A DNA stretch of 64,000 nucleotides. Origin: Octopus vulgaris. Its lineage: Eukaryota. Every line of letters starts with the position of its first letter. Position 1 is the first letter of the stretch. The notes under the pieces were generated by a model. That model was not told the DNA's origin and made no database searches. It saw only the letters and a list, made by a program, of their open reading frames with translations. The stretch spans positions 99,758,001-99,822,000 of the forward strand of contig OX597817.1 in the NCBI GenBank assembly GCA_951406725.2, written 5' to 3'. Positions 1-63,928 of the stretch are shown in pieces. Position numbers and translations under genes: made by a program.

Positions 1-409
1 TAAAAATACCACATGAACATGACATCCCAAATAGAACAAAAAAAAAAAAAGAATAAAGATTACAGTAAAATCTGCACAATAAAAAACATTTCAATCATAA
101 AATTCTGAAAATATTCTGCTTATCGTTACCATTTATAGAAGTACCACACAAACACGATATTCCAAATAGAACAAAATAAAAGCAAAACAGAGATTAAAAT
201 TTGCACAGTTGAAATATTACAAATAAGAAAACATATTTTAATCTTCAAATCCTGAAAATATTTCACATTATTACCCTTTGCAAAAATTTCACATAGATAT
301 GATAACACAAACGTTACAATTAAATTACAAGGAAAAAGACTAATAAGTGTGCAAATATTAAACATATGAGAATAATGCAAATAGTTCACTCTTCAAATCC
401 AAAAAACTG

Positions 410-2124: not shown

Positions 2125-2578
2125 GGAGAAAGCCTATGTTGCTGTCTGAACACAACATGTTTCATCACAGAGAGTGAGTAAGGGATGAATGAACGCAGCA
2201 CGTTTCATTACAGAAAATTAGCAATTACGATAGTATTGTTATTAATATTTGCTTGTAAACTCTTTTAACATACCAAGTTTTACTTCTTTGGTCACTTAAT
2301 AATGTTCCCCTAAATTCAGGTTGTGTGAAGAGAGTGACAATACTGGCAATATAGATACACATGTAAAATATCACTCGTCAGTTGCCTCATCTAACATACA
2401 CTGCCCATGCGGGAATGAATTTTTGTGATTGTATATATTTAAAAAATTTTTTATGATACTTTTGTTTATTTACTACTTTAACAAAGTATAATTTATACAT
2501 TTTACTGAGCAGTCATATACAGGGGTTCAGATTACTGTCAAGCATACATAATTTACCCATTGCACCCCATACATATAT

Positions 2579-3694
2579 ATGGGGTGCAATGGGTAAATTG
2601 TTGCCACTTTATATTTTTAATTTCACGCATGCACATTGTTTGTTTTTGATTTTGTCAACTACACAGTATAGTAGGGTCAGTTGGGCATCATCTGTGAGAA
2701 AAACAGCACCATGATGTAATTCACTCATGACGCAATTCACAATTTGGAAACGACATGAGTACTACTTGGCATTTGCACCAGAAGCTCCAATACAAACATT
2801 TCAGAGTGTTTGGGTGTCATTCTGAGGATAGTGCAGAGGATTCGGAAAGAGTTGGATAAGTCTAATTGTGATTATACAGGTATGGCAGCTCAGAAAACTC
2901 ATTCTGATAAGAAAAGAACTCCGGAATTTGTTGGTGAGATCCAGCAGGGACATGGGAGTGTCTGAGTTTCTTATCGGGCAGGTAGTGCATGAAGACATTC
3001 AGCATTCCTCATACAAGATGAGAAAGGGCCAATTTTTAGCCCAAGCCATCAAGGACAAGAGGAAATACCATGCTACAAAGCTTTTGAACAAACTCAAGCA
3101 TCCCCTGCAACTGAACGTGCTTTGGTTTTTCTCAGACAAGAAAAAATTCTGCCAGGATCAGATGGTGAACACGCAGAACAACCGTCAACTTGCCGTGCCC
3201 CAAAACATGTACTGAAAGTGATAAAAATCAAACATCCAGTCAACCTCATGGTTTGGGGAGTGATCATAAGTGATGATGACATTATGCCTCCATTCATCTT
3301 CACACACGGTCTCAGACTCAACACAGAGGCCTACATCACCCCTAACATCTGACCACCTAACTCCCCAGACTACAAACCCCTTGATTATTATGTGTACAGC
3401 ACAGTTGAGGGAGAGACCAACAAAACTTCTTGTAACAACAAAGATGAACTGACGGCAAGGATTATGGCAGCATTCACCAACTTAAACAAGGAGACTGTCC
3501 AAAAGAGCTGCAGGAGATTCTGAAGTCATCTGAAGGGCATGGTTATAGCCAATGGCGATTTTATTGAATAAAGTTAATCTTTAGTATTCCAAGATATCTT
3601 AATGTAATTTTGGTAAATATATCTGTTAAAATGAGATATCAGTGTTATTATAATTTTTGCGTACTTTAGACAACGATGTATTCACCGCAGCCTG
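2579..3694 (+). mobile_element. Internally deleted maT (DD37D-type) Tc1/mariner element
   Basis: Fragments WFFSDKKKFCQDQMVNTQNNR, KHPVNLMVWGVI and PPNSPD..PLDY. Ends in cctg|TA. Paralog at 28698-29554. Confidence 0.8.
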
Positions 3695-3772
3695 TATATT
3701 GAGGCCCATTATGTGCATGTGTTTATATATATATATATATATATACCAGGTGGTATTAGAAATCTGTGTAGA

Positions 3773-3809
<37 letters not shown>

Positions 3810-3874
3810 AGGTGGTGCTATTAAGTTAGACATGGCCTGGGCCAATAATGGCCGAAACCTATCAAAGTATCAAA

Positions 3875-3924
<50 letters not shown>

Positions 3925-4010
3925 GGAAAGTTTACGAAAATAAACAAAAGACGAAGGCAGGTGGTACAAACAAACAGATGTATTAGTATAGCGCTCAGGA
4001 TTAGGAAAAG

Positions 4011-4053
<43 letters not shown>

Positions 4054-4094
4054 CACACACACACACACACACACATATATATTATATAAGCTGT

Positions 4095-5381
4095 GGACAC
4101 ATAAGAGGTGCAGCAATATCAAAGAAGGCTAACTGGAAAGATAGTTTTGTGTGTGGCAAATGCTCAGGAGCAATAAACACTGAAAATGTGCAGAGAACAG
4201 CTTCCGTCACATTCCAGGGGAAAAAAAAAAACTACAAGTAGTTGATAGCTTCTGTTACCTAGGTGATCAAGTCAGTAGCGGGGTTGGATGCTCTGAAAGT
4301 GTAGCTGCTAGAATAAGAATAGCCTGGGCAAACTTCAGAGTGCTCCTACCTCTGCTGGTGACAAAAGGCCTCTCACTTAGAGTAAAAGGTAGACTGTATG
4401 ACATGTGTACGAACAGCCATGCTACATGGCAGTGAAACATGGGCTGTGACTGCTGAAGATATGTGTAAGCTTGCAAGGAATGAAGCCAATATGCTCCACT
4501 GGATGTGTAATGTCAATGTGCATACATGACTGTGTAAGCACCCTGAGAGAAAAGTTGGACATAAGAAGCATCAGATGTGGTGTGCAAGAAAGATGACTGC
4601 GCTGGTATGGTCATGTGTTGTGAATGGATGAGGACAGCTGTGTGAAAAAGTGTCACAGACTAGCAGTTCAGGGAACCTGTGGAAGAGGTAGACCCAAGAA
4701 GACCTGGGATGAGGTGGTGAAGCATGGCCTTTGAATGTTGAGCCTCTCCAAGACAATGACTAGTGACCGAGATCTTTGGAGATATGCTGTACTTGAGAAA
4801 ACCCAAAAGGCCAAGTGAGACCATAACCATGGCCTATGCCAGTGCTGCATAACAAGCCCATTTATCAACCCATTTAAGAGTACCCTTCAAACATTGGGCA
4901 ATAATATCCGCTTGTGAAGACCTGTTGAGGAAAGTGAAATCGTTGTCATGGCCGATGACAGTACCGCCTGACTGGCACTCATGCCAGTGGAATGTTAAAA
5001 GCAACATTCAAGCATGATCATTGCCAGTGCCACCTGACTGGCTCCTGTGCTGGTAGTACATAAAAACCACCATTTAAGTGTGGTTGTTGCCAGCATTGCC
5101 TGACTGGCTCCTGTGCAGGTGGCACATAAAAAGCACCATTCGAGCATGGTCAATGCTAGTACTACCTGACTGGCTCTTGTGCTGGTGGCACATTAAAGCA
5201 CCTACTACACTTCCGGAGTGGTTGGCATTAGGAAGGGCATTCAGCTGTAGAAACTTTACCAATTCAGATAGGAGCCTGGTGCAGCCTTCTGGCTCACCAA
5301 CCCTCAAGTCAAGCCATCCAACCCATGCTATCATGGAAAGCAGACATTAAATGGCGATGATGATGATGATGACGATGATGA
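4095..5381 (+). mobile_element. 5'-truncated RTE-type LINE (ORF C-terminus, 3' UTR, (GAT)n tail)
   Basis: VVDSFCYLG...RIRIAWANFRVLLPLL...LHGSETWAVT...LRWYGHV...GRGRPKKTW motifs with stops, then a subrepeated UTR and (gat)n. Confidence 0.85.
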
Positions 5382-5694
5382 TATATACATATATATAGTA
5401 AAATGAGGATTCAGATAGAATCAGGTTTTCGAAAAGGTATGCATCAGGTAGGGTTGAGTAATCTCTGTGGTTTTGGCCTATGGTTGGTGAGAGTTGAAAT
5501 ATCGGATAGGATATTTCAGTTGTGTACACAAAGAAAACCAACCCTATGAGTATTTAGCGCCTAAGGGGCTGGTCCAAATCACACATTACTTTGAATAGTA
5601 CATTGTTGGTATACTCTAGGGTGTCTGACAAGTCATAAAATCTCTTGGTGTAATATAATCAAATGACTAATAACATACGATTGACAATTGTCAG

Positions 5695-5771
5695 CTCATT
5701 TCAGCTGTTTCTTATGTAATAGAAGAATGAGAACATTACATCATTATAAAAGACCGTAATCATCAGATGAG
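5695..5771 (-). ncRNA. Degenerate type I hammerhead ribozyme motif
   Basis: Minus strand: ctcat-CTGATGA-stem II-GAAAC-AGCT-GAA-atgag. Stem I is perfect, but the cleavage triplet reads GAA instead of GUH. Confidence 0.55.
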
Positions 5772-6081
5772 AAGTAATTTTACAAAACAAAAGAATATCC
5801 CAAGAATACAGCAGGGATATGGCTAGAGTCTATCGAGGCCAACTATGAAACAGTAGAATGACTAACTATGTTGCCTGTTTAAGTTAAGAATGCAGTTCTT
5901 GAAAGTGTGTAATATGATATCTAAGGTCAGTGATTCAGGTGAGAAGGAGTCTGCTAGACTAGATTATGGGCAGACTGGAGTGGAGTGTAGGAGATAATTT
6001 ATTATAGTAGGATTAGAGTAGCAGGAAGTAAGGAGAGGTCATAAAACAATTAAGGATACGGGGGGGGGGGGAAATGATAAA

Positions 6082-6594
6082 TCTATATATATAAAACTGT
6101 AGTTGTGTGAGTGTCTGTCCCCTTCGATTTAGATTCCTAACTACTCCCGCATTTTGCGGTGCAGTTTAACCAAATTCGGGTATCTTATAGTCGTGATTCA
6201 TATCGAGCCCGTCTGAGTATTAGCTAGCGTCTACGATGAGTCTACGATTTTAAAAATAATTTAACATCATTTTTTATTCCATTTTAATGCATAATTTTTC
6301 GTGTGTCGATGGCGGCGGAGTTGGCGTCCATGGTCACACCTGCACCTGTTTGCTTCTCCCCCTTATTCCCTCCCTCGTGAAGCTGTGGGGAAGGGAGTGT
6401 AAGGAAATCAACGTAGTAAAGCGTTGTCAAGGAGACCAGCGTTCTTTTAGAACAACGACTTCATGACTTGAAGATACCAAAACAGAAATGGCTAAGAAAG
6501 CCCGAATTGGCATCTATAAGGGAAGTAACTCTCTACAAATGCTTATATAGTTATTTCCCTTACAAACCCGAGCAACGCCGGGCGATACTGCTAG
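6082..6594 (+). mobile_element. Non-autonomous Helitron
   Basis: 5' TC (tctatatatataaaa), 3' hairpin cccgagcaacgccggg then CTAG, inserted between A and T with no TSD. Close inverted copy at 27820-28332. Confidence 0.85.
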
Positions 6595-7189
6595 TCAAAT
6601 ATAAGGGTAAAGGAAAAATAAAAAAAATAAAAGCATATAAGTCAATCAGATATAGGGTCAGGGCATAGGAATCTCTAGCTAATGGTAAATGACCAAGGGA
6701 AAGGGACAGAGAAACAGAAATTTAGGGATATTCAGTGGATATTGGTTGAAAGCAGGGGTGGGGTATGAAGGTCATCAAATAAAATCAACTATTTATGGAT
6801 TTGAAGTTATAGTAAAGTAGAGTGCTACCTATCAATAAGGAGTTTAAAGAATTTAAAGAAGGATGAGGCTATATAATGAACTACACATAGTACAGAGTTA
6901 GAGGAGATAGGAGATCCAATATCAAGGAAAGCCAGCAGTAGGCAGTAGTCTAATGATGCAGAAACTGATAATCTCTTGCTACCTTTGCTGTCAGAAATGC
7001 AGTGAAACTGATTTAACCAACAAAACTCTTGTTCACAAACTGGGCTATATAACAAGCAAAATAGATAAACAAACAACTGTCTCAGCTATATCCAATATCT
7101 ATCTCTATTACCATTTACTCACTATTATCTACACAACATTGTAGCATCGATTTGAAACTTAACTGCTAGATACTCGGTCAGACACCACA

Positions 7190-8371: not shown

Positions 8372-8585
8372 TGTTGGTTTCAAATTTTGTCACAAGGCTA
8401 GCAACTTGAAGGGAAGGACTAAGTCAATTACATCGACGCCAGTGCTCAACTGGTACTTATTTTATCAACCCTGAAAGGATAAAAGGTAAAGTTAATTTCA
8501 GTGGAATTTGAACTCAGATTGGATGAAATGTTACTAAGCATTTTGCATGGTGTACTAATGATTCTGCCAGCTCACAGCTGCCTTA
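8372..8585 (-). mobile_element. Decayed tRNA-derived SINE (same family as 43958-44350)
   Basis: actggtacttattttatcaaccctgaaaggat...ggaatttgaactc matches the reverse complement of the SINE body and B-box. Confidence 0.7.
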
Positions 8586-9825
8586 TACCAAATATTAACT
8601 AATGAATATGGTTGATAGTATAAAATATTATGTTGTTTAGCTCCAGTTCAATCTTGACTTTGTCAACTAATGAACATATTGTCCTCTCAAGCATTGTGCA
8701 TCTAGGATCACATCAGCCAATGTCCTTTTTAAATTTAGAAGGGAGTAATTTTATAGAGATTTGGCTATTATTTCTTACAAGTATACATGACTGATGTCAT
8801 CAATATTAACAAGCACATGTAACTGACGATGTCAACATAAATGAGTATATGTGGTTGATAGTCTCAACATTAACGAGTATACGTGATTATTGACATTGTC
8901 AAGGGCATTAATAAACGGCATCAAACAAAAAAATGTGTCGATGACATTATTTATAGGTTCTTGTTATAGATAGTATCACCGTAGCAAATATGTGATTATA
9001 TATTACCAATGTTTTAACAATTTATATAAAAACCACGCAAAACTGAGAGTATCAGTTTTAACATTTACAGTTGACAGATACACCAAGAAAATGAAGCATG
9101 AACATAAACTAGAATAAACAAAGGGAAATTAAAAGAAAAGAATATAAACAGTTAATTTAATAGACAACAATCGGCAAAAGTATGTGAAATTACACGATAA
9201 TTAAGAGGGAGAGTAAGTAAAAAAAAAATGAACTTAGAAAAAGGAAATAAGGCCATTGAAAAGTATGAATGATGATTTCTGGTAATAATAAAATTAAAAG
9301 GAACAAATAGAATCAATGAAAACGAAGAGAAAATTTAAAAAAGAAAACAAAAATTGCGTCAAAAAATGAAAGGAAAAAAGAACGAAGGGTTATACAATTG
9401 TGTATAAAGAGAGGGAGAAAAGGAGACAAAGAGAGAGAGAAGAGAAAAGAGAGAAAGGGAAAGAGAGAACAAGAAAGAAAGATCACATTCTCACTAAATT
9501 GTGTGGGTGTGTGAATGTGGTATGACTTCACAACAGGATGGCCTGAACTAGTTCACTAAGGTATTTCCCTGCTATTATAATAGCTTCCTCCTGTCCAACT
9601 AAACAGCTAAAACGTTACTTACAGTGAAACTCTTCCGCATTGCTTAACAATGGCCGCTAAAGCTGAATGTAAACGTGTGTGTGTGTGTGTGCGTGCGTGC
9701 GTGTGCGTATGAGTATGTGCATTAAACGCACTATACTTCACTGGCGGTGCCCCGGCTTAGCCGTAGCCTCAAGGCTGAAACATGAAAAAATTAAAGAATA
9801 ATTATATTATCCATTTATACACACA

Positions 9826-12829: not shown

Positions 12830-13141
12830 ATATTACAATAAATGCAAACAAACTATTGTTTGCTTTTTAGAAGCATTGAGATGTATTGTAAGATACAGAT
12901 AAGGAAATAATTAATTGTCAAATGCAGAAATGCTGATAGAACAGCAGAGACGGGATAAAATAGCCATATAAAGTGGAAAAAATTGTCAGCAGACCAGTAA
13001 TCAAAGGGATGTAAGTTTGAGTCTCATGGCTGGTTGTTGACAATTTTTTCCACTTTATATGGATATTTTATCCTGTCTCTGCTGTTCCATCAGTGTTTCT
13101 GCATTTGGGAATTATTTCCTTATCTGTATCTTACAATACAT
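12830..13141. mobile_element. tRNA-derived SINE with an inverted partial duplication
   Basis: Arms 12881-12990 and 13036-13141 are reverse complements. The spacer resembles the tRNA-like head seen at 27575-27650. Confidence 0.7.
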
Positions 13142-14110: not shown

Positions 14111-14146
<36 letters not shown>

Positions 14147-14202
14147 TCTGTAAAAAACAAATCCGAAAGAAGAAACACACTCTAAGATGTAGAGCAGCAT
14201 AT

Positions 14203-14734
14203 ACTAAAAGTGGGAAAGGCTAGTTTATGGGATTACCTTAGGCTTCCCACTCATAAAGGGTTTAGCATTATGGCGTATCAGATACCAAAAACCTGTTGGC
14301 CCAAGATCTCTTAAAAATATGGAGGAGAAAATGCCTCACTACCCAAAGGTAACAATTGGAGATTATTTCCCTTTGCTCTTGGCTATCGACTTCAGGCTGT
14401 GCCATCATCTTGTGGCTCCAAAAAGCTAGCAGGAACCTCCTGAAATGGCCCAGAATTCTCCACTCTGGAGTTAAGAATTTTTGAGCCATGTTTACATTTC
14501 AGGAGTTCCTGCTAGCTTTTTGGAGTTCACAAGATGGCGGCACAGCCTGAAGTTAATAGCCAATAACAAAGGGAGATAATTCCCAATTATTACTTTTGAG
14601 TAATGAGGCATTTCCTCCTCTATATTTTTAAGAGGTTTGGAGCCAACAAATCTTTGGGATCTGATGATATGCCATAAAGTTAAACCCTTTATGGACAGGA
14701 AACCTAAGGTAATCCCATAAACCAGCTTTCCCCA

Positions 14735-14742
<8 letters not shown>
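14203..14742. repeat. ~245-bp-arm imperfect inverted repeat between (TA)n runs
   Basis: tttatgggattaccttagg...aaaagctagcaggaa (left) versus ttcctgctagctttt...cctaaggtaatcccataaa (right). Confidence 0.85.
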
Positions 14743-14777
<35 letters not shown>

Positions 14778-26191: not shown

Positions 26192-27482
26192 CGAGGGATG
26201 TTCAATAAGTAATGCCTCTGACCCACTTGCAGTTGTTTGATCTAGCTGAAATTTTGCATGTGCAATCATTTATATCTCTATAGAGTAAGTGGCAAATTAC
26301 AGCTCTGAATTAATTGTGGTTTCTGATTTACAGGTGTTTGAACCGAGTCAAGTGTGAAATGGAGCCTGTTGAGTGTCGAGCAGTGATCCGGTTTTTGTAT
26401 TTGAAAGGACGCACACCACGGGAGACTTTTGATGAAATGAAAGTAACTTATGGTGATGATGCCCCATCATATGACCTTGTAAAACGCTGGCATCGTGAAT
26501 TCAAACATGGTCGGAACTCTGTGGAAACAGCTCCCAGATCTGGTCGCCTCTTCTGCCATTGATGAGGCATCTGTCTGTCAAGTTGAGGCTGCCATTTTGG
26601 AAGATCGACGCATAATTATTCGCCAAATAGCCCATGAGGTCAAGATTAGTACCGGGTCTGTGGAAACTATCATTCATGACCATTTGCATATGCAAAAGGT
26701 GTCTGCCAGATGGATTCCCAGGTTGCTCACACCTTTCCAGAAGCAAGAACGCATCGAGTGCTCGAGGGTGAATTTGGAGATGTGCCAAGAAGATGAGTCA
26801 AAATTTTTCAAAAGACTGATTACACAGGATGAAACCTGGGTCCATCACGATGATCCAGAGACCAAAGCCCAGTCAATGCAGTGGAAGCACCGTGACTCAC
26901 CCCCCCCCAAAGAAGGCAAGGGTGCAGCCCTATGCTGACAAGGTCATGCTCACGGTCTTCTGGGACCAGGACGGAGTAGTGATGACAGATTTCCTGGCAA
27001 AGGGTACCACAATTGCAGGAGCTTATTATGCTTCACTTTTGAGGAAATTAAGAGAAGTTATCAAAATCAAGAGGCGGGGCAAGATCAGCAAAGGCATCCT
27101 CCTCCTGCAGGACAACGCTCCGGTCCACAACTCGCTTGTCGCCAGATCAGAAGCACAGGCGTATGGCTATGAACTCCTCCCCTATCCCCCTACTTTCCTG
27201 ACCTTGCACCCTCTGATTTTCACCTCTTCCCAGTCATGAAGTTGTTTTTGAAAGGAAAGCGTTTCCCAGATGATGCAGCCTTGATTTCTGAAGTCACGTT
27301 CAGGTTGGAGGACCAAGCTAGGGTCTTCTACAAAAACGGTCTCCAGAGCTGCATCAAACAATGGGAGAAATGCATAACTCTGGGTGGTTCCTATGTAGAA
27401 AAAGACTAATAACTGTGCCAAGTTTCGTTGCTCTACTGCTATGGGAAGTGGGTCAGGGGCATTACTTATTGAACGCCCCTCG
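26192..27482 (+). mobile_element. Full-length mariner element (1291 bp) with TA target duplication
   Basis: TIRs cgagggatgttcaataagtaatgcctctgaccca / tgggtcaggggcattacttattgaacgcccctcg flanked by TA. Interrupts a SINE-family sequence (gtaagaTA|cagataagg, compare 12888-12903). Confidence 0.95.
26359..27409 (+). pseudogene. Frameshifted mariner (DD34D-type) transposase
   Basis: MEPVECRAVI.., WIPRLL, ITQDETWVHH, LLQDNAPVH and PDLAPSDF split over several frames. Confidence 0.9.
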
Positions 27483-27484
27483 TA

Positions 27485-27650
27485 CAGATAAGGAAATAAT
27501 TTATTCTCAAATGTAGAATAATGCTGATAAAACAGCAGGAACAGGATAAAATATCCATATTTTGTGGAAAAATTTGTCAGCTATGAGACTTGAACTCACA
27601 TCCCTGTGATTACCAGTCAAGTGTTTTACCAAATAAGATAAACTGCCCTC
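27485..27650 (-). mobile_element. tRNA-like-headed SINE remnant
   Basis: Minus strand ggcagtttatcttatttggtaaaacacttgactggtaatcacagggatgtgagttcaagtctc, a degenerate tRNA-like head followed by a repeated body. Confidence 0.6.
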
Positions 27651-27819: not shown

Positions 27820-28332
27820 CTAGCAGTATTGCCCGGCGTTGCTCGGGTTTGTAAGGGAAATAACTATATAAGCATTTTTAGAGAGTTACTTCCCTTATAG
27901 ATGCCAATTCGGGCTTTCTTAGCCATTTCTGTTTTGGTGTCTTCAAGCCATGAAGTCGTTGTTATAAAAGAACGCTGGTCTCCTTGACCACACATTATGA
28001 CGTTGATTTCCTTACACTCCCTTCCCCACAGCTTCACGAGGGAGGGAAGAAGGGGGAGAAGCAAACAGGTGCAGGTATGACCATGGATGCCAACTCCACC
28101 GCCATCAACACACGAAAAATTATGCATTAAAATGGAATAAAAAATGATGTTAAATTATTTTTAAAATCGTAGACTCATCGTAGACGAGTGCTAATACTCA
28201 GATGGGCTCGATATGAATCACGACTATAAGATACCCGAATTTGGTTAAACTGCACCGCAAAATGTGGGAGTAGTTAGGAATCTAAATCGAAGGGGACAGA
28301 CACTCACACAACTACAGTTTTATATATATAGA
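27820..28332 (-). mobile_element. Non-autonomous Helitron
   Basis: Reverse complement of 6082-6594 with TC...CTAG ends and an A|T target. Confidence 0.85.
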
Positions 28333-28496
28333 TAAGAACAGTGGAGGTTTGCACATGAGTAATTTATTTTATAGTTATTTACAGCACATTACAAATATGC
28401 TGTAAATAAATGTAAAATAAATTATCGATGTTCAAATCTCCATTCTCCTTATTATTAATGTTATATATATATATATATCATCATCATCATCATCAT

Positions 28497-35795: not shown

Positions 35796-36412
35796 GCGTG
35801 CGTGCGTGTGTTTGTGTGTGTGTGTAGATAATATCGAGAGGAAACCTATTTTCTTCACACATGATCGATATTACACATCATGACGGGACTTGAATCAACA
35901 TGAATATCCAATACTGAGAAGCATCTCCGTCGTACTTACTATTTTCATAAGGAAATAATTCAAATCATCTTTTAAAAAATTTAACATAAAGAACTGGAGA
36001 ACAGAAACAAGGTATGCGACAACGAATTTAATCTGAAGTACTGCGATGATATAATTATCAAAAAGAAAGAGAACAGAGTATCTAATAAATCGGAAGATTA
36101 CCGAGGAAAATAGAAAGGGAAAATTAGAAATAAATTGTTCTGATGTGAAAATATTCCAGACTAAATCGCTAATTCAGTTTACACGCATTATATCACGTAC
36201 GTACGTACGTACGTATGTACGTATGTATGGATGTATGTATGTATGTATGTATGTATGTATGTATGTATGTATGTATGTATGTATGTATGTATGTATGAAT
36301 GTATGTATGTATGTATGTATACTCGCGCGCGCACGCACGCACACACATCGTTTGTAGAAATACATAATTCCGGAGGAGAAGTACACTCTAAGATCTCAGG
36401 CCAGCAGTGTTT

Positions 36413-36472
36413 GGTGTCTGAAGATACACCGTAAGGTTAGACCCTTATGAGCGAGAAACCCAGGGTAACCCC
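36413..36472 (+). ncRNA. Type I hammerhead ribozyme motif with intact core
   Basis: ggtgt-CTGAAGA-[gtaagg/ccttat stem]-GAAAC-CCAGG-GTA-acccc, ~25 bp before (TA)n. Confidence 0.55.
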
Positions 36473-36496
36473 CTAAATCGGCCTACCCCACTATAA

Positions 36497-36603
<107 letters not shown>

Positions 36604-38394: not shown

Positions 38395-38906
38395 ATACGC
38401 TCATACACTTTGAAGCGCCGAGTGAGTTGGTATTACACACACACATATGTTCACTATCGCCAAATGGTTAAGAATTTCGTCTCACCATCTCGTGGATCCG
38501 GATTCGATCCCACTTATTTGGCATTTTGGGCTAGTATCATTTATTTTCGATTGGCTCATTACCTTATGAGTGAAATAAGTTAGAAGGAAACTGATTGAAC
38601 GGTGTAATTTGAAGGTGTAGCCTTGTCACATTGTGTCAAACTAATTCTGCCAGAGAATTATATTAGGAATAAAAACGTGTCTGTGGAATGAGGTAATTCG
38701 GCTGATCAAACAACTGTAATACGGTGGAGATCTGTCTAAATCTTCACACACAAACATAACTTTAATCTTGTACTTGTTTCAGTCATTGGACTGCCGGCCA
38801 TTCTGAGGCATTACCTTGAAGAGTTTAATCGAATAAAACGGTCGCATTATTAAGTTTGGTACTTAATCTATCGATATCTTTCAGCTTGTGAGGCGTAAAA
38901 AAACCA

Positions 38907-39676
38907 AGGGGCTAAACACAGAGGGGACAAACAAGGACAGACATAGGTATTAAGTCGATTACATCGACTCCAGTGCGTAACTGGTACTTAATTTATCGAC
39001 CCCGAAAGGATGAAAGGCAAAGTCGACCTCGGCGGAATTTGAACTCACAACGTAACGGCAGACGAAATACCTATTTCTTTATTACCCACAAGGGGCTAAA
39101 CACAGAGGGGACAAACAAGGACAGACATAGGTATTAAATCGATTACATCGACCCCAGTGCGTAACTGGTACTTAATTTATCGACCCCGAAAGGATGAAAG
39201 GCAAAGTCGACCTCGGCGGAATTTGAACTCACAACGTAACGGCAGACGAAATATCTATTTCTTTATTACCCACAAGGGGCTAAACACAGAGGGGACAAAC
39301 AAGGACAGACATAGGTATTAAGTCGATTACATCGACCCCAGTGCGTAACTGGTACTTAATTTATCGACCCCGAAAGGATGAAAGGCAAAGTCGATCTCGG
39401 CGGAATTTGAACTCACAACGTAACGCAGACGAAATACCTATTTCTATTTCTTTATTACCCACAAGGGGCTAAACACAGAGGCAACAAACAAGGACAGACA
39501 TAGGTATTAAGTCGATTACATCAACCCCAGTTCGTAACTGGTACTTAATTTATCGACCCCGAAAGGATGAAAGACAAAGTCGATCTCGGCGGAATTTGAA
39601 CTCAGAACGTAACGCAGACGAAATACCGTTAAGCATTTCGCCCGGCGTGCTAACGTTTCTGCCAGCTCGCCGCCTT
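38907..39676 (-). mobile_element. tRNA-derived SINE with four tandem ~184-189-bp body units
   Basis: Unit ggggctaaacacagagg...ggaatttgaactcacaacgtaacg starts at ~38907, 39092, 39276 and 39465. A single head (ggcggcgagctggcagaaacgttagc) lies at 39645-39675. Confidence 0.9.
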
Positions 39677-40899: not shown

Positions 40900-40994
<95 letters not shown>

Positions 40995-41020
40995 TAAGTG
41001 GGCACAGGACATTACGGAAC

Positions 41021-41560
41021 GTGTACAACAAAAAATTACAAAGTACGAGTACATGGAATACGAACTATTTTTTCGAACAACGAAAGACACAAATGGAAAA
41101 CAAGACACAGCACAAAGAACGCCCCTTCATCAGTTGTTGGCTGTTTTTCTACTCTCATATTTCGAGTATTTAGCAACAATATACACTTTCGAGAAAACAG
41201 TTGCTCCCGCAAATCAAATTAAATAAAATTTAGGATTTGCGGAGGGTTGAAAGTTGGTAACACAAACAAGACAGTGAAAACAAACAAGAAGGGCCTTTGT
41301 TTTCACTGTCACGTTTGTGTTACCAAATTTGACCCTCCGCAAAAACATCAAATTTTATTTAATTTGCTTTGCGGGAGCAACTGTTTTCTCGAAAGCATAT
41401 ATTGTTAAATAGTCGAAATACGAGAGTAGAAAAACAGCCAACAACTGATGAAGGGTCGTTCTTTGTGTTGTTTGTTTTGTTTTCCATTTGTGTCTTTCGT
41501 TGTTCGAAAAAATAGTTCATATTCCATGTACTCGTACTTCGTAATTTTTTGTTGTACACA
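41021..41560. repeat. ~265-bp-arm inverted repeat between (TA)n-rich runs
   Basis: gtgtacaacaaaaaatt...gacagtgaaaacaaa versus tttgttttcactgtc...aattttttgttgtacac with a ~11-bp spacer. A diverged relative lies at 41655-41950. Confidence 0.9.
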
Positions 41561-42363
41561 TATGCATATATATATATATATATATTAATAAATAAAACAT
41601 ATGCATATATATATACATATACATATATGTACTACCTACCTCTTCATGTATATATGAGTACAGGACACCAAAAAACGTCGAACACAATGAGAAACGAAAA
41701 CATAGACACAAACCCAAGGAACTGGACATTTTTCTTAAACAACAACAAAAAAAAAATAGAGTACAGGACAAATAACACAAGGAAAAAAACCCTTCTTCAG
41801 TCGCCATGGTTTCATCTACTCTACGTTTCGAAGGTGAAGGCGAGACGTATCTTCGATAGAAACTTTCCTTCCTGCGAAAAGCAAATCAAATAAAATTTTA
41901 GATCTTTTTGCAGAGGGGTAAAAATGGTAACAAAAATAGGACAGTAACGACAGTACAAAATATAAGCAGTAAAAGACAGGACAAGGAAAATAACAAGACA
42001 AGAAGAGCTGTTAAGCCGAACGAGATAAAATATTACGAACGCTATTTATGTGGACGGCGAAGGGGGCAAAGAAAATTGCCGTCCACACCTCAAGAAGGTC
42101 AGGCGAGAAAGCTTTCATTCTTTGATTTCCTTTTCTTCCACTTAACTGTCTCTCCCTCTCTCTCATTCTTCATTCTTTCTGGTTTCCTCCCAACCATTCC
42201 CCTTTCTTCTCTCCCTTTCTCTTACTCCTCCTCCTCCCTCCCGCCGTTAACCCGCGACGAGAGCCTTGCCACCTTCTTTCTCGCCTGACCTTCTTATATA
42301 TATATATACTTATATATAAGTATATAGTAAGTATGTACCTATACGTATGTATATATGCATATA

Positions 42364-43949: not shown

Positions 43950-43957
43950 TATATAAA

Positions 43958-44350
43958 AGCGGCGAGCTGGCAGAAACGTTAGCACGTCGGGCGAAATGCG
44001 TAGCCGTAGTTCGTCTGCCGTTAGTTCTGAGTTCAAATTCCGCCGAGGTCGACTTTGCCTTTCATCCTTTCGGGGTCGATTAAATAAGTACCATTTACGC
44101 ACTGGGGTCGATGTAATCGACTTAATCCGTGTGTCTGTCCTTGTTTGTCCCCTCTGTGTTTAGCCCCTTGTAGGTAGTAAAGAAAGAGGTATTTCATCTG
44201 TCTTCATGTTCTGAGTTCAAATTTCGCCGAGGTCGACTTTGCTTTTCACCCTTTCGGGGTCGATAAAATAAGTACCAATGACATACTGAGGTTGATGTAA
44301 TCGACTAGTGCCCTCCCCCATATCTCAGGCTTTATGCCTATAGTAGTAAG
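43958..44350 (+). mobile_element. tRNA-derived SINE with two tandem body units
   Basis: Head gcggcgagctggcagaaacgttagc, and gagttcaaatt..gccgaggtcgactttgc..cctttcggggtcgat twice. Confidence 0.85.
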
Positions 44351-46539: not shown

Positions 46540-47080
<541 letters not shown>

Positions 47081-47143
47081 ATATATATATATATGTATAT
47101 ATATATGTATATATATATACACATACACACATACATATATATA

Positions 47144-47209
<66 letters not shown>

Positions 47210-47398
47210 ACATTTTATAAAGGGCTTAGTAAAATAAATTACTTTGCCACATACTGAACTCATTAGAAATAGCAGCCCCAAAAATTTTTTTAGCCATTTC
47301 TAATACTTAAAGAAAATTTCTCTCAGATAGTGTTTACTCAAAATAACCCACGAAGGTATGGGGGTAAAAACATTAAAAAATCACAAGTGCAAAGATTA

Positions 47399-47460
47399 TT
47401 TGAGAACGTACGTTTCTAGATCAGCCGAATACAATTCGACATTTCTTTTGTCAGCTCAAA
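47399..47460 (-). ncRNA. Hammerhead ribozyme copy with G8A core change
   Basis: tttgag-CTGACAA-stem II-GAAAC-GTAC-GTT-ctcaaa. Confidence 0.7.
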
Positions 47461-48110
47461 ATTTCTTAATTCGGATTTGTAAACACTGAAAGTAGGAGCA
47501 TACCCTTTTGGCGACTTTTCACCTCCGAAGATCCGCTCAAACTAACAGTGCCAACAAATTCAAAATATGCAAGCGAAGAATTACTGCCCTCCCTTTCCAC
47601 CCACGTGTGCTAAACTAGCAAACACCATGTTTTATCGGTGAAAACCGAAGCATTAAACAGAGAGAAATGAATTATAATTTCAACAATTGAGGGTAAAATT
47701 AATTAATTATTAATCAATTTCAATTTTTTTGGGCTGCTATTTCTAATGAGTTCAGTATGTGGCAAAGTAATTTATTTTACTAAGCCCTTTATAAAATGTA
47801 ATATTTTGAATTCGCCTTAAATGGTCCCTTTACATACTGAATACTTGGTGAAATTGATTAATAATTAATTAATTTTACCCTCAATTGTTGAAATTATAAT
47901 TCATTTCTCTCTGTTTAATGCTTCGGTTTTCACCGATAAAACATGGTGTTTGCTAGTTTAGCCCACGTGGGTGGAAAGGGAGGGCAGTAATTCTTCGCTT
48001 GCATATTTTGAATTTGTTGGCACTGTTAGTTTGAGCGGATCTTCGGAGGTGAAAAGTCGCCAAAAGGGTATGCTCCTACTTTCAGTGTTTACAAATCCGA
48101 ATTAAGAAAT

Positions 48111-48172
48111 TTTGAGCTGACGAAAGAAATGTCGAATTGTATTTGGCTGATCTAGAAACGTACGTTCTCAAA
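48111..48172 (+). ncRNA. Type I hammerhead ribozyme with intact core
   Basis: Stem I tttgag/ctcaaa, CTGACGA (48117-23), stem II aga..gtcgaat/atttggc..tct, GAAAC-GTAC-GTT. Predicted cleavage after 48166. Confidence 0.85.
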
Positions 48173-48453
48173 TAATCTTTGCACTTGTGATTTTTTAATG
48201 TTTTTACCCCCATACCTACGTGGGTTATTTTGAGTAAACACTATCTGAGAGAAATTTTCTTTAAGTATTAGAAATGGCTAAAAAAATTTTTTGGGGCTGC
48301 TATTTCTAATGAGTTCAGTATGTGGCAAAGTAATTTATTTTACTAAGCCCTTTATAAAATGTAATATTTTGAATTCGCCTTAAATGGTCCCTTTACATAC
48401 TGAATACTTGGTGAAATTGATTAATAATTAATTAATTTTACCCTCAATTGTTG

Positions 48454-48516
<63 letters not shown>

Positions 48517-48697
48517 TAGATAGATAGATAGATAAAGAAGTAAATATATGGCACAACGAAGTACCGATATTTACTGGAAATAGCGAACGTAATAATACGT
48601 ATTTACTTCTTTGTATATTTCTCCCTCACGGGCTATTCTTTACTGGAAAGCAATACTCTAGTATTGCATTACTAATTTATATATATATATATATATA

Positions 48698-48895
48698 TAA
48701 AGGGAAAGTTTACGAAAATAAACAAAAGACGAATGCAGGTGGAGTACAAACAAACAAATGTATTAGTATAGCGCTCAGGAATAGAAAGAGTCTTTTACGT
48801 TTCGAGCCTACGCTTTTCGACAGAAAGATACATAGAAAAAAACAAGGAGAGAAACCAGGAGAGAAAAAAAAATGCGTGTAGGAGCTAACGATCTA
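48698..48895 (-). mobile_element. Short (TA)n-associated repeat with a variant hammerhead-like motif (48791-48828)
   Basis: First ~100 bp match 3920-4016. Minus strand tcttt-CTGTCGA-aaagc-gtag-gctc-GAAAC-GTA-aaaga. Confidence 0.5.
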
Positions 48896-49047: not shown

Positions 49048-49130
49048 GGGAATATTACTTCCGAGTACACAAGAAAAAGACATTCAAATTAGATGTACTA
49101 AAATGAACATCTCTCATTGTTTAATTCGTA

Positions 49131-49578
49131 TATATATAAGTAGTTTCAGAGATAGAACCATCTTCAACTCAATCAACACTGAAAGATTTTATACCCGACC
49201 ACTCCATAAAATATAAAATGTTAAATCTTTTTCTAACTATATCTATTCTGAATTCCGTATTTTCCGTTTATAAGACTACACGTGAAGATATAGAGTATAA
49301 TGTAGGTATATAAAAGGTAGGGGTAGTGAAAAATGTTGAGGAACCCAGACCTGAAGATTGAGAGTGTGTCGACCCGATTAAGTATTGAAACTAGATACCT
49401 CGTATCATATCAATACCGACGTACTTTCATGAAACACGTGTAGTCTTATAAACGGAAAACATGGAATTCAGAGTAGATATAGTTAGTATCAGATTTAATA
49501 TTTACTATTTTATGGAGTGGTCGGATATAAAATCTTTCAGTGTTGATTGAGTTGAAGGTGGTTCTGTCTCTAAAACTA

Positions 49579-49590
<12 letters not shown>
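49131..49590. mobile_element. Hammerhead-bearing non-coding element with ~150-bp inverted arms, in (TA)n
   Basis: 49131-49284 and 49435-49590 are diverged reverse complements. Confidence 0.8.
49347..49446 (+). ncRNA. Type I hammerhead ribozyme with intact core and long stem II
   Basis: agac-CTGAAGA-t[tgagagtgtgtcg...cgacgtactttca]t-GAAAC-ACGT-GTA-gtct. Predicted cleavage after 49442. Confidence 0.8.
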
Positions 49591-59626: not shown

Positions 59627-59892
59627 AACGTAAGGGTATTAGCCATCTGAATGTGGCTAGCCACTGGGGGATGGGGGTGGGGTGTTACTGATGCTTTTAG
59701 CCCCAGGCGATCAACGTCACCAGAAGGACTTTAGACACTATCTCAGTGCCCTTGTGTTACTTGCAAGTAACACAAGGGCACTGAGATAGTGTCTAAAGTC
59801 CTTCTGGTGACGTTGATCGCCTGGGGCTAAAAGCATCAGTAACCCCCCCCCCCAGTGGCTAGCCACATTCAGATGGCTAATACCCTTACGTT
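59627..59892. repeat. Near-perfect spacerless 266-bp palindrome abutting (TA)n
   Basis: Centre ...gtgttacttg|caagtaacac... at 59763/59764. Arms differ only in the G/C-run region. Confidence 0.95.
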
Positions 59893-60034
59893 ATATATAT
59901 ATATATATATAAATTTGATAAGAGGATATGTTAACCTTGTGAAGGGATGGTTGCATTCAAGGAAATACTGGTTCAATACCTAGTATCTTGGGGGTATATG
60001 TTAAGCATATAGTTTATGTCCATTTAAAAGAAGA

Positions 60035-60395
60035 ACAGAAAATGGAAATAAGGAAGTTAGTACTTGTTTATTATTAACAAACTGGTTATCTTCAGTTTTT
60101 ACAGCCGTTTCAAATAAATACTCAATAATTTGTACATTAAATTTACGCTTATGTAACATGAGTATAATTTCTTCAGAGAAAAAAAAAGATGTATCTTTGG
60201 ATGTTATTTGTGGGCCTATCAATTCATTTCAGCAGACTCTAATGAAATTATACTCATGACACATAAATGTTAATTTACTGTACAAACTTGTAATTAAATT
60301 ATTGAGTATTAATTGAAATGGCTGCAAGAAGTGAAGATGACCGATTTGTTAATAATAAACAATTATCAACTTTATCTCCATTTTCTTTTCTTCTC
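60035..60395. mobile_element. Inverted pair of hammerhead-bearing segments
   Basis: Minus 60096-60180: CTGAAGA..atactca/tgagtat..GAAAC-GGCT-GTA. Plus 60235-60330: CTAATGA..GAAAT-GGCT-GCA (decayed). Confidence 0.65.
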
Positions 60396-60658
60396 TTAAA
60401 TATATATATATATATGTGCGTGTGTGCTTATAAGTTTATGTGTGTGTGTCTTTGTTCTGTGTTTGTCTCCCCACCTTTGCTTGACAACTGATGTTGGTGT
60501 GTTTACGTCCCTGTAACTTAGCAGTTTGCCAAAGGGATCTGCCAGAATAACTAGGCTTACAACGAATAAGACCTGGCATCAGTTTCTACAGGTAAAAATC
60601 CTTTAAGGCGATGCTTCAGCATGGCCACAGTCAAATGACTGAAACAAGCAAAATATTA

Positions 60659-61119: not shown

Positions 61120-63322
61120 CTTCAATAGCTCCAGTGAGAACAGCAAGTTTGCTTCTGGCTGACACTGCTTCTATTCATAAGCACTGGGTAGAACCTTTTT
61201 CTGCATTTTTTAATAGACGTCATCCGCTGACATGAGGATGATAGAAAAAATCGAGTACCTTCCAGTTATAGAAGAGATGGCATTTGAACCAACTCTAAGT
61301 GACATTTATTTAGCTGTAAAAAAGCTTAATTACAATAAGTCTCCAGGGTCTGATGAAATCTATGCAGAAGTCTTGAAATATGGGGGTGACAAAATGTTTG
61401 AACTCTTAAATGTATTAATTTGTCACTGTTGGAGAACTAAGAAAGTGCCTCAAGACTGGATTGAGGCCATTTTAGTCTCCTTGTATAAATCGGGGCCAAA
61501 GGATCTGTGTGATAATTTTCGTGGGATTTCACTTTTGTATGTGGTTGGAAAGGTACTTGCCTGCATTTTGTTAGAGGGTTTAAATACCTTCATAGTTCCA
61601 AATATGGTGTCTGAGTCTTAGTGTGGTTTTCACTCCTCTAGGGGCACAGCTGATTGTATCTTTACTATCAGACAATTACAAGAAGAGTGCATTGAACAGA
61701 ATCTTGCCCTATATCATTGATTTGTTGATTTGAGCAAAGCAGTGAATACTGTTAATCAAAATGCTTCTGTGGTTAATTGTAAGGAAAATAGGTTACCCAG
61801 AAAAATTTGTAAACATGATCAGGGCTTTGCATTAAGATACAAAAGCTAGAGTTAACTTTGGTGGTAGGCTTTCTGAATCTTTTGCTGTGGAAAATGAAGT
61901 AAAGCTAGGAGACCTTGATGAACCCACCCTCTTTGCAATATACTTTGCTGTTGTTGTCACATGCTTTTCAAAACTCTGAGGAAGGTATTTACATAAAAAA
62001 ATTGAACAACAGGAAATGTTTTTAATCTGACCAAACTGAAATTCAAAACGAAGGTTTTTACTTTACTCATCAGGGAACTTTTATACGCTGATGATTGTGA
62101 TCATGTCAGTCATTCTGAAACAGGTCTGCAATCTCTCGTATCTGCATTTGACTCAGCTTGTGATGATTTTGGCCTGACCATCAACTTGAAAAAAACAGTT
62201 GTAATGTATAAACTTACATATAGTGCTATTTGTAACACCCCACCTAAAATTTTTGTTAAGGGTAAGTTACTTGAGGTTGTCGATTCTTTCATCTACCTTG
62301 GAAGCTCTGTACAAAATGAAGGAAATCTGGATACAGAAATACATCTGCAAATTCAAAGGGTAGCACAAACATTTGGTGGCTTGGAGTTATATGTTTGGTG
62401 CAAGCGACATATAAATAACAATACAAATTCAGCTCTTGACAAATCATTTGTCTTAAGTCTTAACATCCCTGTTGTATTCTTGTGAAACATGGACATGTTA
62501 TGAAAGACATTTTAAATTGTTGGAACAATTCCACCAAAAATGCCTTCAGCGCATTCTAAACAGTAAATGGAGTTCTTTTACTCCAAACACAGATGTCCTT
62601 GCATCTGCAGGCATCATCTCAATTAAAGCTATGATTTTGAGAAACCAAATGAGATGGCGTGGCCATATTGTTCGAATGGCGGATGAACGCATACCCAAAA
62701 AGCTGTTTTATGGTGAGCTTGCAGAGGGGAAATGCTATTGGCCTAAACCTACAAAAAAGGTTTAAGGATGGCATAAGGACTACTATGAAGTCACTTGGAA
62801 TGGATCCAGAGGACATAGAAACCCTTGCTTCGGATTGAGCTGGATGGTGAACAAAAGTGTGGAGCGGAGTGAAGTGAAAGCTTTTGAAGAGGCCAGAATA
62901 ATGCATGCAAGACTCAAGTGAGATTTAACGAAGAATGTTACTATTGAGAAGGTGAATCACAATGACCTTTTTGTGTGTATGGTTTGTGACAGACCATGCC
63001 TTTCTTTTTCTGAGCTAAAATCTCATTTTTGAACTCATGGAAAACAAATCTCCACCAACTATTCTGCCTATGTCTGTGCATGCCTTTCAATGCAATGTAT
63101 GCCAGATTTGTAAATCTAACAGAGGCCTCAAAAGACATTTTAAGATCCACAAAGATCAGAACTTATCTGTGGCTCTTGGTGGTCCAAATCAGATATGCAA
63201 TCTATGTGGGTGTCTTTTCAAAACATTACCTGGTTTAAAAAGCCACATCAGATGCCATGATGGTTATAAGGGATAGGTACAGGAGGTGGTCAAATTCTGC
63301 ATAAGGAGTAGACAACCACCAT
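61120..63322 (+). mobile_element. 5'-truncated RTE (BovB-like) LINE, decayed RT with C-terminal C2H2 fingers
   Basis: KSPGSDEI, NFRGISLL, RGTADCIFTIRQLQE, FVDLSKA, ELLYADD, VVDSFIYLGS, YSCETW, QMRWRGHIVRMADERIPKKLFYGEL. Confidence 0.9.
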
Positions 63323-63402
63323 ATATACACAAACACACACACACATATATATATATGTATATATATGTGTATATATATGTATGTATGTATTTATATATAT
63401 AT

Positions 63403-63870
63403 ATATTATATTAAATTAGAGATAAAACCACTATTAGGCAAATCATACAATGACAAACTTAAGCCAATACATAAGATTAATTAATTTATATTATTTAAAT
63501 ATATATCAAAATTATTAAAAAAGATAATTAATATAACACCACAATCGTTTCATGGCTGTTCAATTCTTAAAATTTTCGAGTTACAGTCATTCTTCAGGTG
63601 GTTTACATATCTAACTTGGCGAGGTTTAATCAATATATATATATATTATATTAAATTAGAGATAAAACCACTATTAGGCAAATCATACAATGAAAAACTT
63701 AAGCCAATACATAAGATTAATTAATTTATATTATTTAAATATATATCAAAATTATTAAAAAAGATAATTAATATAACACTACGATCGTTTCATGGGTGTT
63801 CAATTCTTAAAATTTTCGAGTTACAGTCATTCTTCAGGTGGTTTACATATTTAACTTGGTGAGGTTTAAT

Positions 63871-63873
<3 letters not shown>
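63403..63873 (-). mobile_element. Tandem dimer of a 240-bp non-coding hammerhead-bearing unit in (TA)n
   Basis: ttaaattagagataaaacc at 63411 and 63651. Hammerhead motifs at 63535-63603 and 63775-63843. Confidence 0.85.
63775..63843 (-). ncRNA. Type I hammerhead ribozyme with intact core
   Basis: Minus strand aaccac-CTGAAGA-atgactgt...acacccat-GAAAC-GATC-GTA-gtgtt. The other copy reads GAAAC-GATT-GTG (decayed). Confidence 0.75.

Positions 63874-63928
<55 letters not shown>

What the first reader, a model, noticed from the sequence alone, without database searches (positions are those of the whole stretch)
47208..48457. Young 563-bp permuted, non-coding hammerhead element with tandem plus inverted architecture
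A 563-bp unit occurs as ~1.3 head-to-tail copies (172-bp direct repeat) preceded by a near-identical inverted ~0.9 copy, all inside (TA)n and with no ORF. It has the cleanest hammerhead in the window (48111-48172: 6-bp stem I, CUGACGA, GAAAC-GTAC-GUU). The inverted copy has a CpG-type G8A change. More than one unit with permuted ends is what reverse transcription of a circular or multimeric RNA would leave, and partial-tandem plus inverted 5' copies are typical of Penelope-like insertions.
Basis: partly seen in the sequence, partly recalled or inferred. Interest (0 to 1): 0.8.

Follow-up and report, generated by a model that had tools for sequence, protein, structure and literature searches.

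The report
Retrozyme copy with Penelope-type insertion scar
This is one young copy of a common, protein-free animal repeat whose 563-letter unit is predicted to fold into a tight RNA with a self-cutting (hammerhead) motif, and it was likely pasted into the genome by the enzymes of Penelope-type jumping genes, which makes it a new member of a known kind.

Summary
The architecture is confirmed: a 736-nt forward arm (563+173) is joined head-to-head to a 515-nt inverted arm about 99% identical to it, inside (AT)n, with no ORF over 52 aa. The hammerhead motif is real but atypical: GUU site, A·A closing helix II, palindromic helix III, and G8A in the inverted arm. The unit is a multi-copy family held by 20 of 24 listed runs under four species labels. 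The + strand folds far better than shuffles (z about -9; minus strand -4), and family variants spare the predicted helices (14 of 57 break a pair, 24 expected). Diverged relatives keep the unit's order. Best reading: a non-autonomous retrozyme-type element copied by a Penelope-like RT/endonuclease from both nicked strands, off a longer-than-unit RNA. Circle versus uncut multimer is unresolved (about 55:45). This locus has one hammerhead per strand, so it cannot itself release a unit-length RNA. Expression, cleavage, circularity and the partner enzyme are untested. This scan already reported many such families elsewhere in the same genome; none matched this sequence.

The parts
47081..47206 (.). 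Left (AT)n flank, inferred target tract
   Evidence: TRF period 2, 63 copies, 90% matches
47208..47722 (-). Inverted arm, 515 nt, equals 47849-48364; its 3' end abuts the left (AT)n tract
   Evidence: Alignment: 4 substitutions and 1 indel against the forward arm
47399..47460 (-). Hammerhead motif of the inverted arm with G8A (C3 kept), predicted inactive
   Evidence: C3-G8 pair needed for activity per PMC11167929
47722..47722 (.). Head-to-head junction of the two arms with 1 nt of overlap (unit positions 47849 and 48285)
   Evidence: Sequence
47722..47894 (+). First copy of the 173-nt direct repeat (second lap of the forward arm)
47895..48457 (+). One full 563-nt unit, 33.7% G+C, predicted highly paired on the + strand
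47903..48003 (+). 5' strand of the predicted long arm; pairs with 48180-48255 on the far side of the hammerhead
   Evidence: Helices 47903-11:48247-55, 47943-54:48233-44, 47959-73:48213-27, mean pair probability 0.95-0.98
48007..48101 (+). Predicted rod-like hairpin upstream of the hammerhead
   Evidence: Local z -5.85; helices
48111..48172 (+). Type I hammerhead motif: helix I 48111-16:48167-72, core 48117-23 and 48155-58, extended helix II 48125-53, palindromic helix III, GUU site, predicted cut 48166/48167
   Evidence: family variants
48266..48442 (+). Three predicted 3' hairpin domains (48266-311, 48313-405, 48410-442), the part with the highest summed contig depth
48365..48457 (+). About 90-93-nt extension present on the forward arm only (tail between the two inferred reverse-transcription starts)
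48458..48534 (.). Right (AT)n then (GATA)n flank

Best explanation
The locus is one young insertion of a multi-copy, non-coding 563-nt element with a hammerhead motif, and it was likely written by a borrowed Penelope-like reverse transcriptase/GIY-YIG endonuclease from an RNA longer than one unit. Shown: the two-armed layout in (AT)n, the lack of an ORF, the motif, the family in 20 listed runs. Predicted: the + strand RNA folds as one domain that takes in almost the whole unit. Inferred steps: (1) a source locus with two or more units is transcribed; (2) paired hammerheads, helped by the helix III palindrome, would cut slowly at GUU and a host ligase would close the monomer (about 55%), or the uncut multimer is used directly (about 45%); (3) the enzyme would nick both strands of an (AT)n tract and prime one cDNA from each, at two internal points about 90 nt apart (48457 and 48364-48367); (4) the cDNAs stop after 736 and 515 nt and are joined head-to-head. 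This copy carries one hammerhead per strand and is likely a dead-end product, not a source of unit-length RNA.
For: Layout matches the partial-tandem, inverted 5'-truncated copy, one-sided tail and (TA)n bias described for Penelope-like elements (against PMC8557442). The Anolis element cuts and extends both strands of AT-rich DNA and starts at two internal RNA sites that define the tail (PMC11167929). Independent contigs leave the unit into (AT)n at 47894 and 47898 (= 48457, 48461) and near 48357 (3 of 24 loose ends shown). Fold: circle -162.6 kcal/mol against -114.9 +/- 5.7, 0 of 100 shuffles as low; linear + strand z -9.0, minus strand z -4.0; 16 of 17 control stretches lie between -3.75 and +2.4, the 17th is a DNA palindrome; 28 of 184 pairs are G.U on + against 6 of 149 on -. 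Of 57 distinct family variants 14 break a predicted pair, against 24.1 +/- 3.2 by random placement, P=0.001. Helix II pair 48132:48146 occurs as U.G, U-A and C-G; a common variant gives an A-U pair at 10.1-11.1 (88, 77, 36, 9% of depth in four runs). No core variant is among the 80 variant rows shown. Diverged relatives keep the unit's order across 47970/47971 (5 of 64 listed pieces, 4 runs) and the share of contigs that run on into unlike sequence is 0.00 in 5 of 5 DNA or unlabelled runs.
Against: No genome was available, so no tandem array of this family and no partner element was seen. The link 48457-to-47895 is crossed by 6 of 32 listed pieces, but only one has 31 letters on both sides and its depth is 3.2; four joint rows in two DNA runs also show it. 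Short contigs rarely run on, and only 48 of 516 loose ends were shown, so an attached ORF is not excluded. The hammerhead lacks the conserved G10.1-C11.1 pair, has U17, and the active monomer fold has probability 7e-5 in ViennaRNA. The tail (90-93 nt) is longer than the 30-40 nt described. The variant test uses a fold predicted from one member and related, non-independent variants; 131 further variant rows were hidden. The one difference between the two laps (47730 T, 48293 G; inverted arm G) fits a mixed multimer slightly better than one circle, but it lies in a homopolymer 8 nt from the junction.
Confidence: 0.75

Rival explanations
1. Sub-case counted inside the 0.75 above: same element and enzyme, but the template is an uncut multimeric transcript and the hammerhead is a weak bystander; no circle is used.
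For: For the Anolis element, ribozyme mutants insert normally and uncut RNA is the main substrate in vitro. The motif here has U17 and no G10.1-C11.1 pair. 8 of 9 Xenopus retrozyme dimers did not cut in vitro. The single lap difference leans this way.
Against: Whole-unit fold with strand bias; in a mussel most retrozyme RNA is circular; core positions show no variant among 80 rows shown.
Confidence: 0.33
2. The unit is the pseudo-LTR of an autonomous Penelope-like element, and this locus is a remnant made of truncated 3' ends with no independent life as a 563-nt RNA.
For: Hammerheads sit in pseudo-LTRs and most occur as single truncated copies (PMC4209133). Summed contig depth is highest at the 3' part and has a 30-60-fold trough at 47912-47970 in the deepest run and about 15-fold.
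Against: The trough segment makes 36 high-probability pairs with 48213-48255, is bridged to 47971+ by diverged relatives in 4 runs, and its loose end is a diverged homologue, not new sequence. No + strand frame of 40 aa follows the hammerhead, unlike the Anolis element whose ORF starts in helix II.
Confidence: 0.15
3. The layout arose at the DNA level (fold-back or template-switch repair, or unequal crossing-over) from a satellite-like monomer lying in a fragile (AT)n tract, with no RNA step for this locus.
For: (AT)n tracts and internal hairpins are present; both arm 5' ends lie in predicted hairpins.
Against: Both outer ends are element 3' ends that meet (AT)n, other copies end at nearly the same bases, and the fold is strand-biased through G.U pairs. 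At least two other two-armed inserts in (TA)n occur in the window.
Confidence: 0.06
4. The inversion and duplication are an assembly or chimeric-read artefact.
For: The locus-specific junction at 47722 and the flanks were not tested with reads; the best run holds only 0.64 of the words.
Against: The arms differ at 4 substitutions, and at 48218 the inverted arm has the family's majority base while the forward arm does not; the junction is asymmetric (126 nt between the arms).
Confidence: 0.03

Closest known systems
Metazoan non-LTR retrozymes (Cervera and de la Pena 2020, PMC7229834: passages and Discussion read; Li, Clavereau and Pollet 2026, bioRxiv 10.64898/2026.07.22.740005: parts 1-3 of 5 read, supplements closed)
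   Same: Non-coding unit with a type I hammerhead, low G+C (33.7%), size within the 51-972 bp range of Li et al., predicted highly paired RNA, proposed dependence on Penelope-like elements.
   Different: This locus has 1.31 units and one hammerhead per strand, so it fails the two-consecutive-hammerhead rule for an 'active' retrozyme and is a dispersed copy. Unit longer than mussel (350-390), coral (220-245) or axolotl (330-353). Expression, cleavage and circles are not shown here.
Penelope-like element insertions (Craig et al. 2021, PMC8557442: passages read)
   Same: Partial tandem, adjacent inverted 5'-truncated copy, extension at one end only, microsatellite target with no discernible duplication.
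   Different: No RT/GIY-YIG ORF; 563-nt period rather than about 3-4 kb; extension 90-93 nt rather than 30-40 nt.
Poseidon of Anolis carolinensis, PAc (Frangieh et al. 2024, PMC11167929: parts 1-2 of 4 read)
   Same: Two inferred internal start sites downstream of the hammerhead, both target strands extended, AT-rich target, cDNA passing through the uncut ribozyme site.
   Different: PAc's ORF starts in helix II and its start site lies about 85-92 nt past the cut, not homologous to the target; here no ORF follows, the ends lie 198 and 291 nt past the cut and share 2-3 nt (AT) with the target.
Canonical and minimal metazoan type I hammerheads (Cervera and de la Pena 2014, PMC4209133: parts 1-2 of 4 read)
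   Same: Helix I of 6 bp, intact core, 2-bp helix III with palindromic loop that favours a dimer.
   Different: No G10.1-C11.1 pair (A.A here, A-U in a common variant); GUU site; helix II extended by a 3x3 internal loop and a 7-bp hairpin; the same AAGAAAU/UAAUCUU-type motif frames both helix I and helix II.

Membership tests
Metazoan non-LTR retrozyme | Type I hammerhead motif in the unit | tested here: met
   48111-48172; 0.06 expected per shuffled window; no Rfam match
Metazoan non-LTR retrozyme | No protein coding | tested here: met
   Longest frame 52 aa; 0 of 6 frames hit Pfam
Metazoan non-LTR retrozyme | Low G+C, unit of a few hundred bases, highly self-paired predicted RNA | tested here: met
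   33.7% G+C, 563 nt, z -8.4 as a circle, z -9.0 linear
Active non-LTR retrozyme locus (Li et al. 2026 rule) | At least two consecutive units each with a complete hammerhead | tested here: not met
   One hammerhead per strand at this locus; hence filed as a dispersed copy, not an active locus
Metazoan non-LTR retrozyme | Family has tandem arrays elsewhere in the genome | tested here: inconclusive
   No genome. The unit-closing link occurs in other copies but contigs are too short to show two hammerheads in a row
Metazoan non-LTR retrozyme | Expressed as unit-length linear and circular RNA | tested here: inconclusive
   Only contigs of runs guessed to be RNA were available; they cannot show ends, strand or circularity
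Metazoan non-LTR retrozyme | Self-cleavage | not testable with these tools
   Needs in vitro transcription of monomer and dimer
Canonical metazoan type I hammerhead | Core CUGANGA / GAAA / UH, 6-bp helix I, short palindromic helix III | tested here: met
   Forward arm; broken by G8A in the inverted arm
Canonical metazoan type I hammerhead | G10.1-C11.1 pair closing helix II | tested here: not met
   A.A in both arms; A-U in a common family variant. It is therefore a variant motif, not a canonical one
Canonical metazoan type I hammerhead | Loop 1-loop 2 tertiary contact | not tested
   Internal loops exist in both helices; no 3D test run
Autonomous Penelope-like element | ORF with RT and GIY-YIG endonuclease | tested here: not met
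   it is not an autonomous element
Penelope-type insertion footprint | Partial tandem plus adjacent inverted 5'-truncated copy, in a microsatellite | tested here: met
Penelope-type insertion footprint | 30-40-nt tail at one end only | tested here: inconclusive
   One-sided extension present but 90-93 nt
Penelope-type insertion footprint | Homology of the unit to the pseudo-LTR of an autonomous partner | not testable with these tools
   No genome or repeat library available

The most novel reading that the evidence does not exclude
The family replicates as a folded 563-nt RNA circle whose GUU hammerhead is deliberately damped: U17 extends the helix III palindrome to 10 nt (AACGUACGUU), so the motif acts mainly as a dimerisation latch that keeps circles intact for a Penelope-type enzyme, and A-to-I edits in the circle's long helices are written back into the genome (this copy has G where the family majority has A at 6 places, 5 of them in predicted helices, against 2 C-for-T; P about 0.07). 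It would be a natural test case for how animal retrozyme circles avoid re-cutting and for RNA editing driving their evolution.
Probability: 0.12. Interest if true: 0.65.

Novelty: new member of a known kind. Interest (0 to 1): 0.3.

Why it matters
Animal retrozymes are proposed to be copied by Penelope-like elements from RNA circles, but neither step has been shown in the papers read here. A young copy that bears the full Penelope footprint, passes more than one unit and belongs to a family with a conserved whole-unit fold is a ready substrate for testing both. The GUU site and missing G10.1-C11.1 pair bear on the open question of how retrozyme circles avoid re-cutting (raised in PMC7229834). 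The kind itself is published, and this scan has noted many sister families in the same genome, so the surprise is modest.

Tried and rejected
No whole genome is held, so copy number, arrays and partner could not be counted. Rfam: no hammerhead match (1 tRNA-like hit in the window; 3 chance hits at E<=10). A strict motif scan found nothing because it required helix II to start with a pair; the relaxed scan found it. Pattern scans gave 0 matches in metagenome contigs and viral contigs. Earlier scan notes: no look-alike by sequence or place. No RNA holder listed on record; three runs guessed to be RNA hold the unit, and 5 of their 24 listed pieces cross the predicted cut site unbroken, but these may be DNA, so expression is not claimed. 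The 'goes back 553-559' joints only show the normal continuation 48284-to-48285 with homopolymer variation and are not evidence of a circle. Folding linear permutations (-161 to -169 kcal/mol) cannot tell a circle from a linear RNA. The hammerhead region alone is not more stable than shuffles (z -0.46 to +0.64). The depth step at 47971, first read as the edge of an ORF, is better explained by sequence divergence; depth is not a copy number. An A/G over C/T excess among variants appears in 4 of 4 runs (about 2:1) but in only 1 of 4 runs (22 against 20), so editing is a lead only. One opposite-strand joint near 48288 in another copy has depth 3 and lies at the edge of the reference: not used. 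A frame ending in PRGLN on the minus strand recalled a GIY-YIG tail (from memory) but had no Pfam hit. Paper searches with octopus + hammerhead terms listed no study of this family; subscription papers and repeat databases were not searchable, so absence from print is not established.

Full report
Observation. A forward arm 47722-48457 (736 nt) carries a 173-nt direct repeat at spacing 563 with one mismatch. An inverted arm 47208-47722 is the reverse complement of 47849-48364 with four substitutions and one single-base indel. The arms meet head-to-head at 47722 with one shared base, and both outer ends run into (AT)n tracts. No other copy lies in the window. The longest frame inside is 52 aa and 0 of 6 tested frames hit Pfam. 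No whole genome was held. Earlier scan notes call the host an octopus; I did not test that.

The hammerhead. The motif at 48111-48172 has a 6-bp helix I, CUGACGA, GAAA, a 2-bp helix III with a palindromic loop and a predicted cut at 48166/48167. Shuffled windows give 0.06 such motifs with helix I of 6 bp or more, and 0 of 200 with a palindromic helix III. This matches the short palindromic helix III of metazoan type I hammerheads, which work as dimers (PMC4209133). It departs from the canon twice: the site is GUU, allowed by the NUH rule but not among the best triplets (GUC, AUC; PMC9217987, passages), and helix II opens with A.A in place of the conserved G10.1-C11.1. Rfam does not detect it. 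The active monomer fold has probability 7e-5 in ViennaRNA, which ignores core tertiary energy. Two copies fold at -33.2 kcal/mol together against -12.7 each, pairing through the palindrome and freeing CUGACGA; that duplex also pairs A14 with U17, which the active core would not (inference). The inverted arm has G8A with C3 kept; since the C3-G8 pair is needed for activity, it is predicted dead. So the locus has one plausible ribozyme on one strand and cannot release a monomer by double cleavage.

The family. 20 of 24 listed runs hold the unit, from 9 studies and four species labels; the best share of words is 0.64. In eight runs laid, 25 to 6900 contigs per run fit, and all or all but one of 30 bins were covered in each. 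Summed depth is highest at 48294-48457 and falls in steps upstream; the tool warns that this is no copy number. I first read the trough at 47912-47970 as the edge of a longer coding element. It is better read as divergence: 5 of 64 listed pieces, in four runs and with 8-30 differences, bridge 47970/47971 with 31 or more letters on each side, and the loose end there is a diverged homologue. The unit-closing link 48457-to-47895 is crossed by 6 of 32 pieces, only one of them meeting the 31-letter rule (depth 3.2), and by four joint rows in two runs. The share of contigs running on into unlike sequence is 0.00 in 5 of 5 DNA or unlabelled runs and 0.03-0.2 in the three runs guessed to be RNA. Of 24 loose ends shown, three lead into (AT)n, at 47894, 47898 and near the equivalent of 48357, close to this locus's ends (48457 and 48364-48367). 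Only 48 of 516 loose ends were shown, so this is thin support for two fixed start points.

The fold. As a circle the + strand folds at -162.6 kcal/mol against -114.9 +/- 5.7 for shuffles, 0 of 100 as low. Linear z is -9.0 on + and -4.0 on -; 16 of 17 control stretches fall between -3.75 and +2.4, and the last is a DNA palindrome. G.U pairs are 28 of 184 on + and 6 of 149 on -, which points to a single-stranded + RNA. The fold has a long arm pairing 47903-48003 with 48180-48255, a rod at 48007-48101, the hammerhead with helices I and II formed (probability 0.87-0.99) and 3' hairpins at 48266-48442. The low-depth segment 47903-47973 supplies 36 high-probability pairs, so it belongs to the same structure. 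Of 57 distinct variants from the 80 rows shown (131 hidden), 25 are unpaired, 18 keep the pair and 14 break it, against 24.1 +/- 3.2 expected (P=0.001); two pairs vary compatibly on both sides (47946:48241, 48035:48073). Variants are related by descent and the fold comes from one member, so the P value is generous. In helix II the pair 48132:48146 occurs as U.G here, U-A in 88-97% of depth and C-G in loose ends of two runs; A48154T gives an A-U pair at 10.1-11.1 in 88, 77, 36 and 9% of depth in four runs. No core position is among the variants shown.

Mechanism. The layout is that described for Penelope-like insertions: partial tandem, adjacent inverted 5'-truncated copy, a tail at one end, microsatellite targets (PMC8557442). 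The purified Anolis element cuts and extends both strands of AT-rich DNA, starts at two internal RNA sites that define the tail, and uses uncut RNA (PMC11167929). Read this way, one arm was primed at 48457 and ran 736 nt, the other near 48364-48367 and ran 515 nt, and the ends were joined. Both cDNAs cross the predicted cut site and one passes more than a unit, so the template was longer than a unit: a re-ligated circle or an uncut multimer. Circles dominate retrozyme RNA in a mussel and were proposed as templates for Penelope-like enzymes (PMC7229834), and Li et al. tie retrozymes to pseudo-LTRs by distribution and phylogeny. Against the circle stand the weak-looking ribozyme and the Anolis result. 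I put it at about 55:45 for the circle. All of these steps are inferred; none was observed here.

Comparison and novelty. It works like a metazoan non-LTR retrozyme moved by a Penelope-like element. It meets the motif, non-coding, composition and fold criteria; this locus fails the two-hammerhead rule for an active locus and is filed as a dispersed copy; expression and cleavage are untested. It is not an autonomous Penelope-like element. Earlier notes of this scan describe many sister families in the same genome with the same two-armed reading; they are unchecked AI notes and not independent support, and none matched this sequence. What this family adds is the strand-biased whole-unit fold with variant support, the GUU site with its 10-nt palindrome, and a weak hint of fixed A-to-I edits (6 G-for-A against 2 C-for-T relative to the family majority, P=0.07; the polymorphism counts disagree). 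Supplements of the bioRxiv paper could not be seen and may list related families. Verdict: real, a new member of a known kind, interest 0.3.

Noticed in passing
window 14127-14746: A second, older two-armed element between (TA)n tracts (arms 80% alike) with a hammerhead motif at 14655-14717 (6-bp helix I, GUA site, 3-bp helix III) and a decayed inverted motif near 14230-14290. A different family from the finding.
   Followed up: partly
window 36404-36500: Hammerhead-like remnant 74% alike to 14653-14760, directly followed by (TA)n; core kept, helix I decayed.
   Followed up: partly
window 40925-41631: Long two-armed palindrome between (TA)n tracts; it was the z -56 outlier among the fold controls. 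No clear hammerhead found.
   Followed up: partly
window 49129-49590, 59627-59892, 60006-60416, 12881-13141, 28332-28452: Further inverted-repeat inserts, most next to (TA)n; they may be other Penelope-type scars or MITEs.
   Followed up: no
window 63393-63892: 240-nt unit in 2.1 tandem copies, 97% alike, separated and flanked by (TA)n; no hammerhead found by the relaxed scan.
   Followed up: no
window 38905-39627: 184-nt unit in 3.9 tandem copies, 95% alike, related to 43956-44306 and 8411-8608; recalls an octopus SINE segment (from memory).
   Followed up: no
window 46745-47080: A tRNA-headed SINE-like insert with A- and B-box-like motifs between two (TA)n tracts, directly left of the element; ARAGORN finds no tRNA gene in the window.
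   Followed up: no
window 26483-27239 and 27575-27647: Mariner-type transposase fragment (Pfam Transposase_1, E 1.6e-18) next to a tRNA-like Rfam hit that overlaps a repeat shared with 12894-13128.
   Followed up: no
window 62006-62485: Reverse transcriptase fragment (Pfam RVT_1, E 1.4e-5, below the curated cut-off); looks like a decayed LINE, not shown to be a Penelope-like partner.
   Followed up: no
window 48675-48797 and 3897-4017: A 123-nt stretch following (TA)n occurs twice at 93% identity, one copy about 220 nt right of the element.
   Followed up: no
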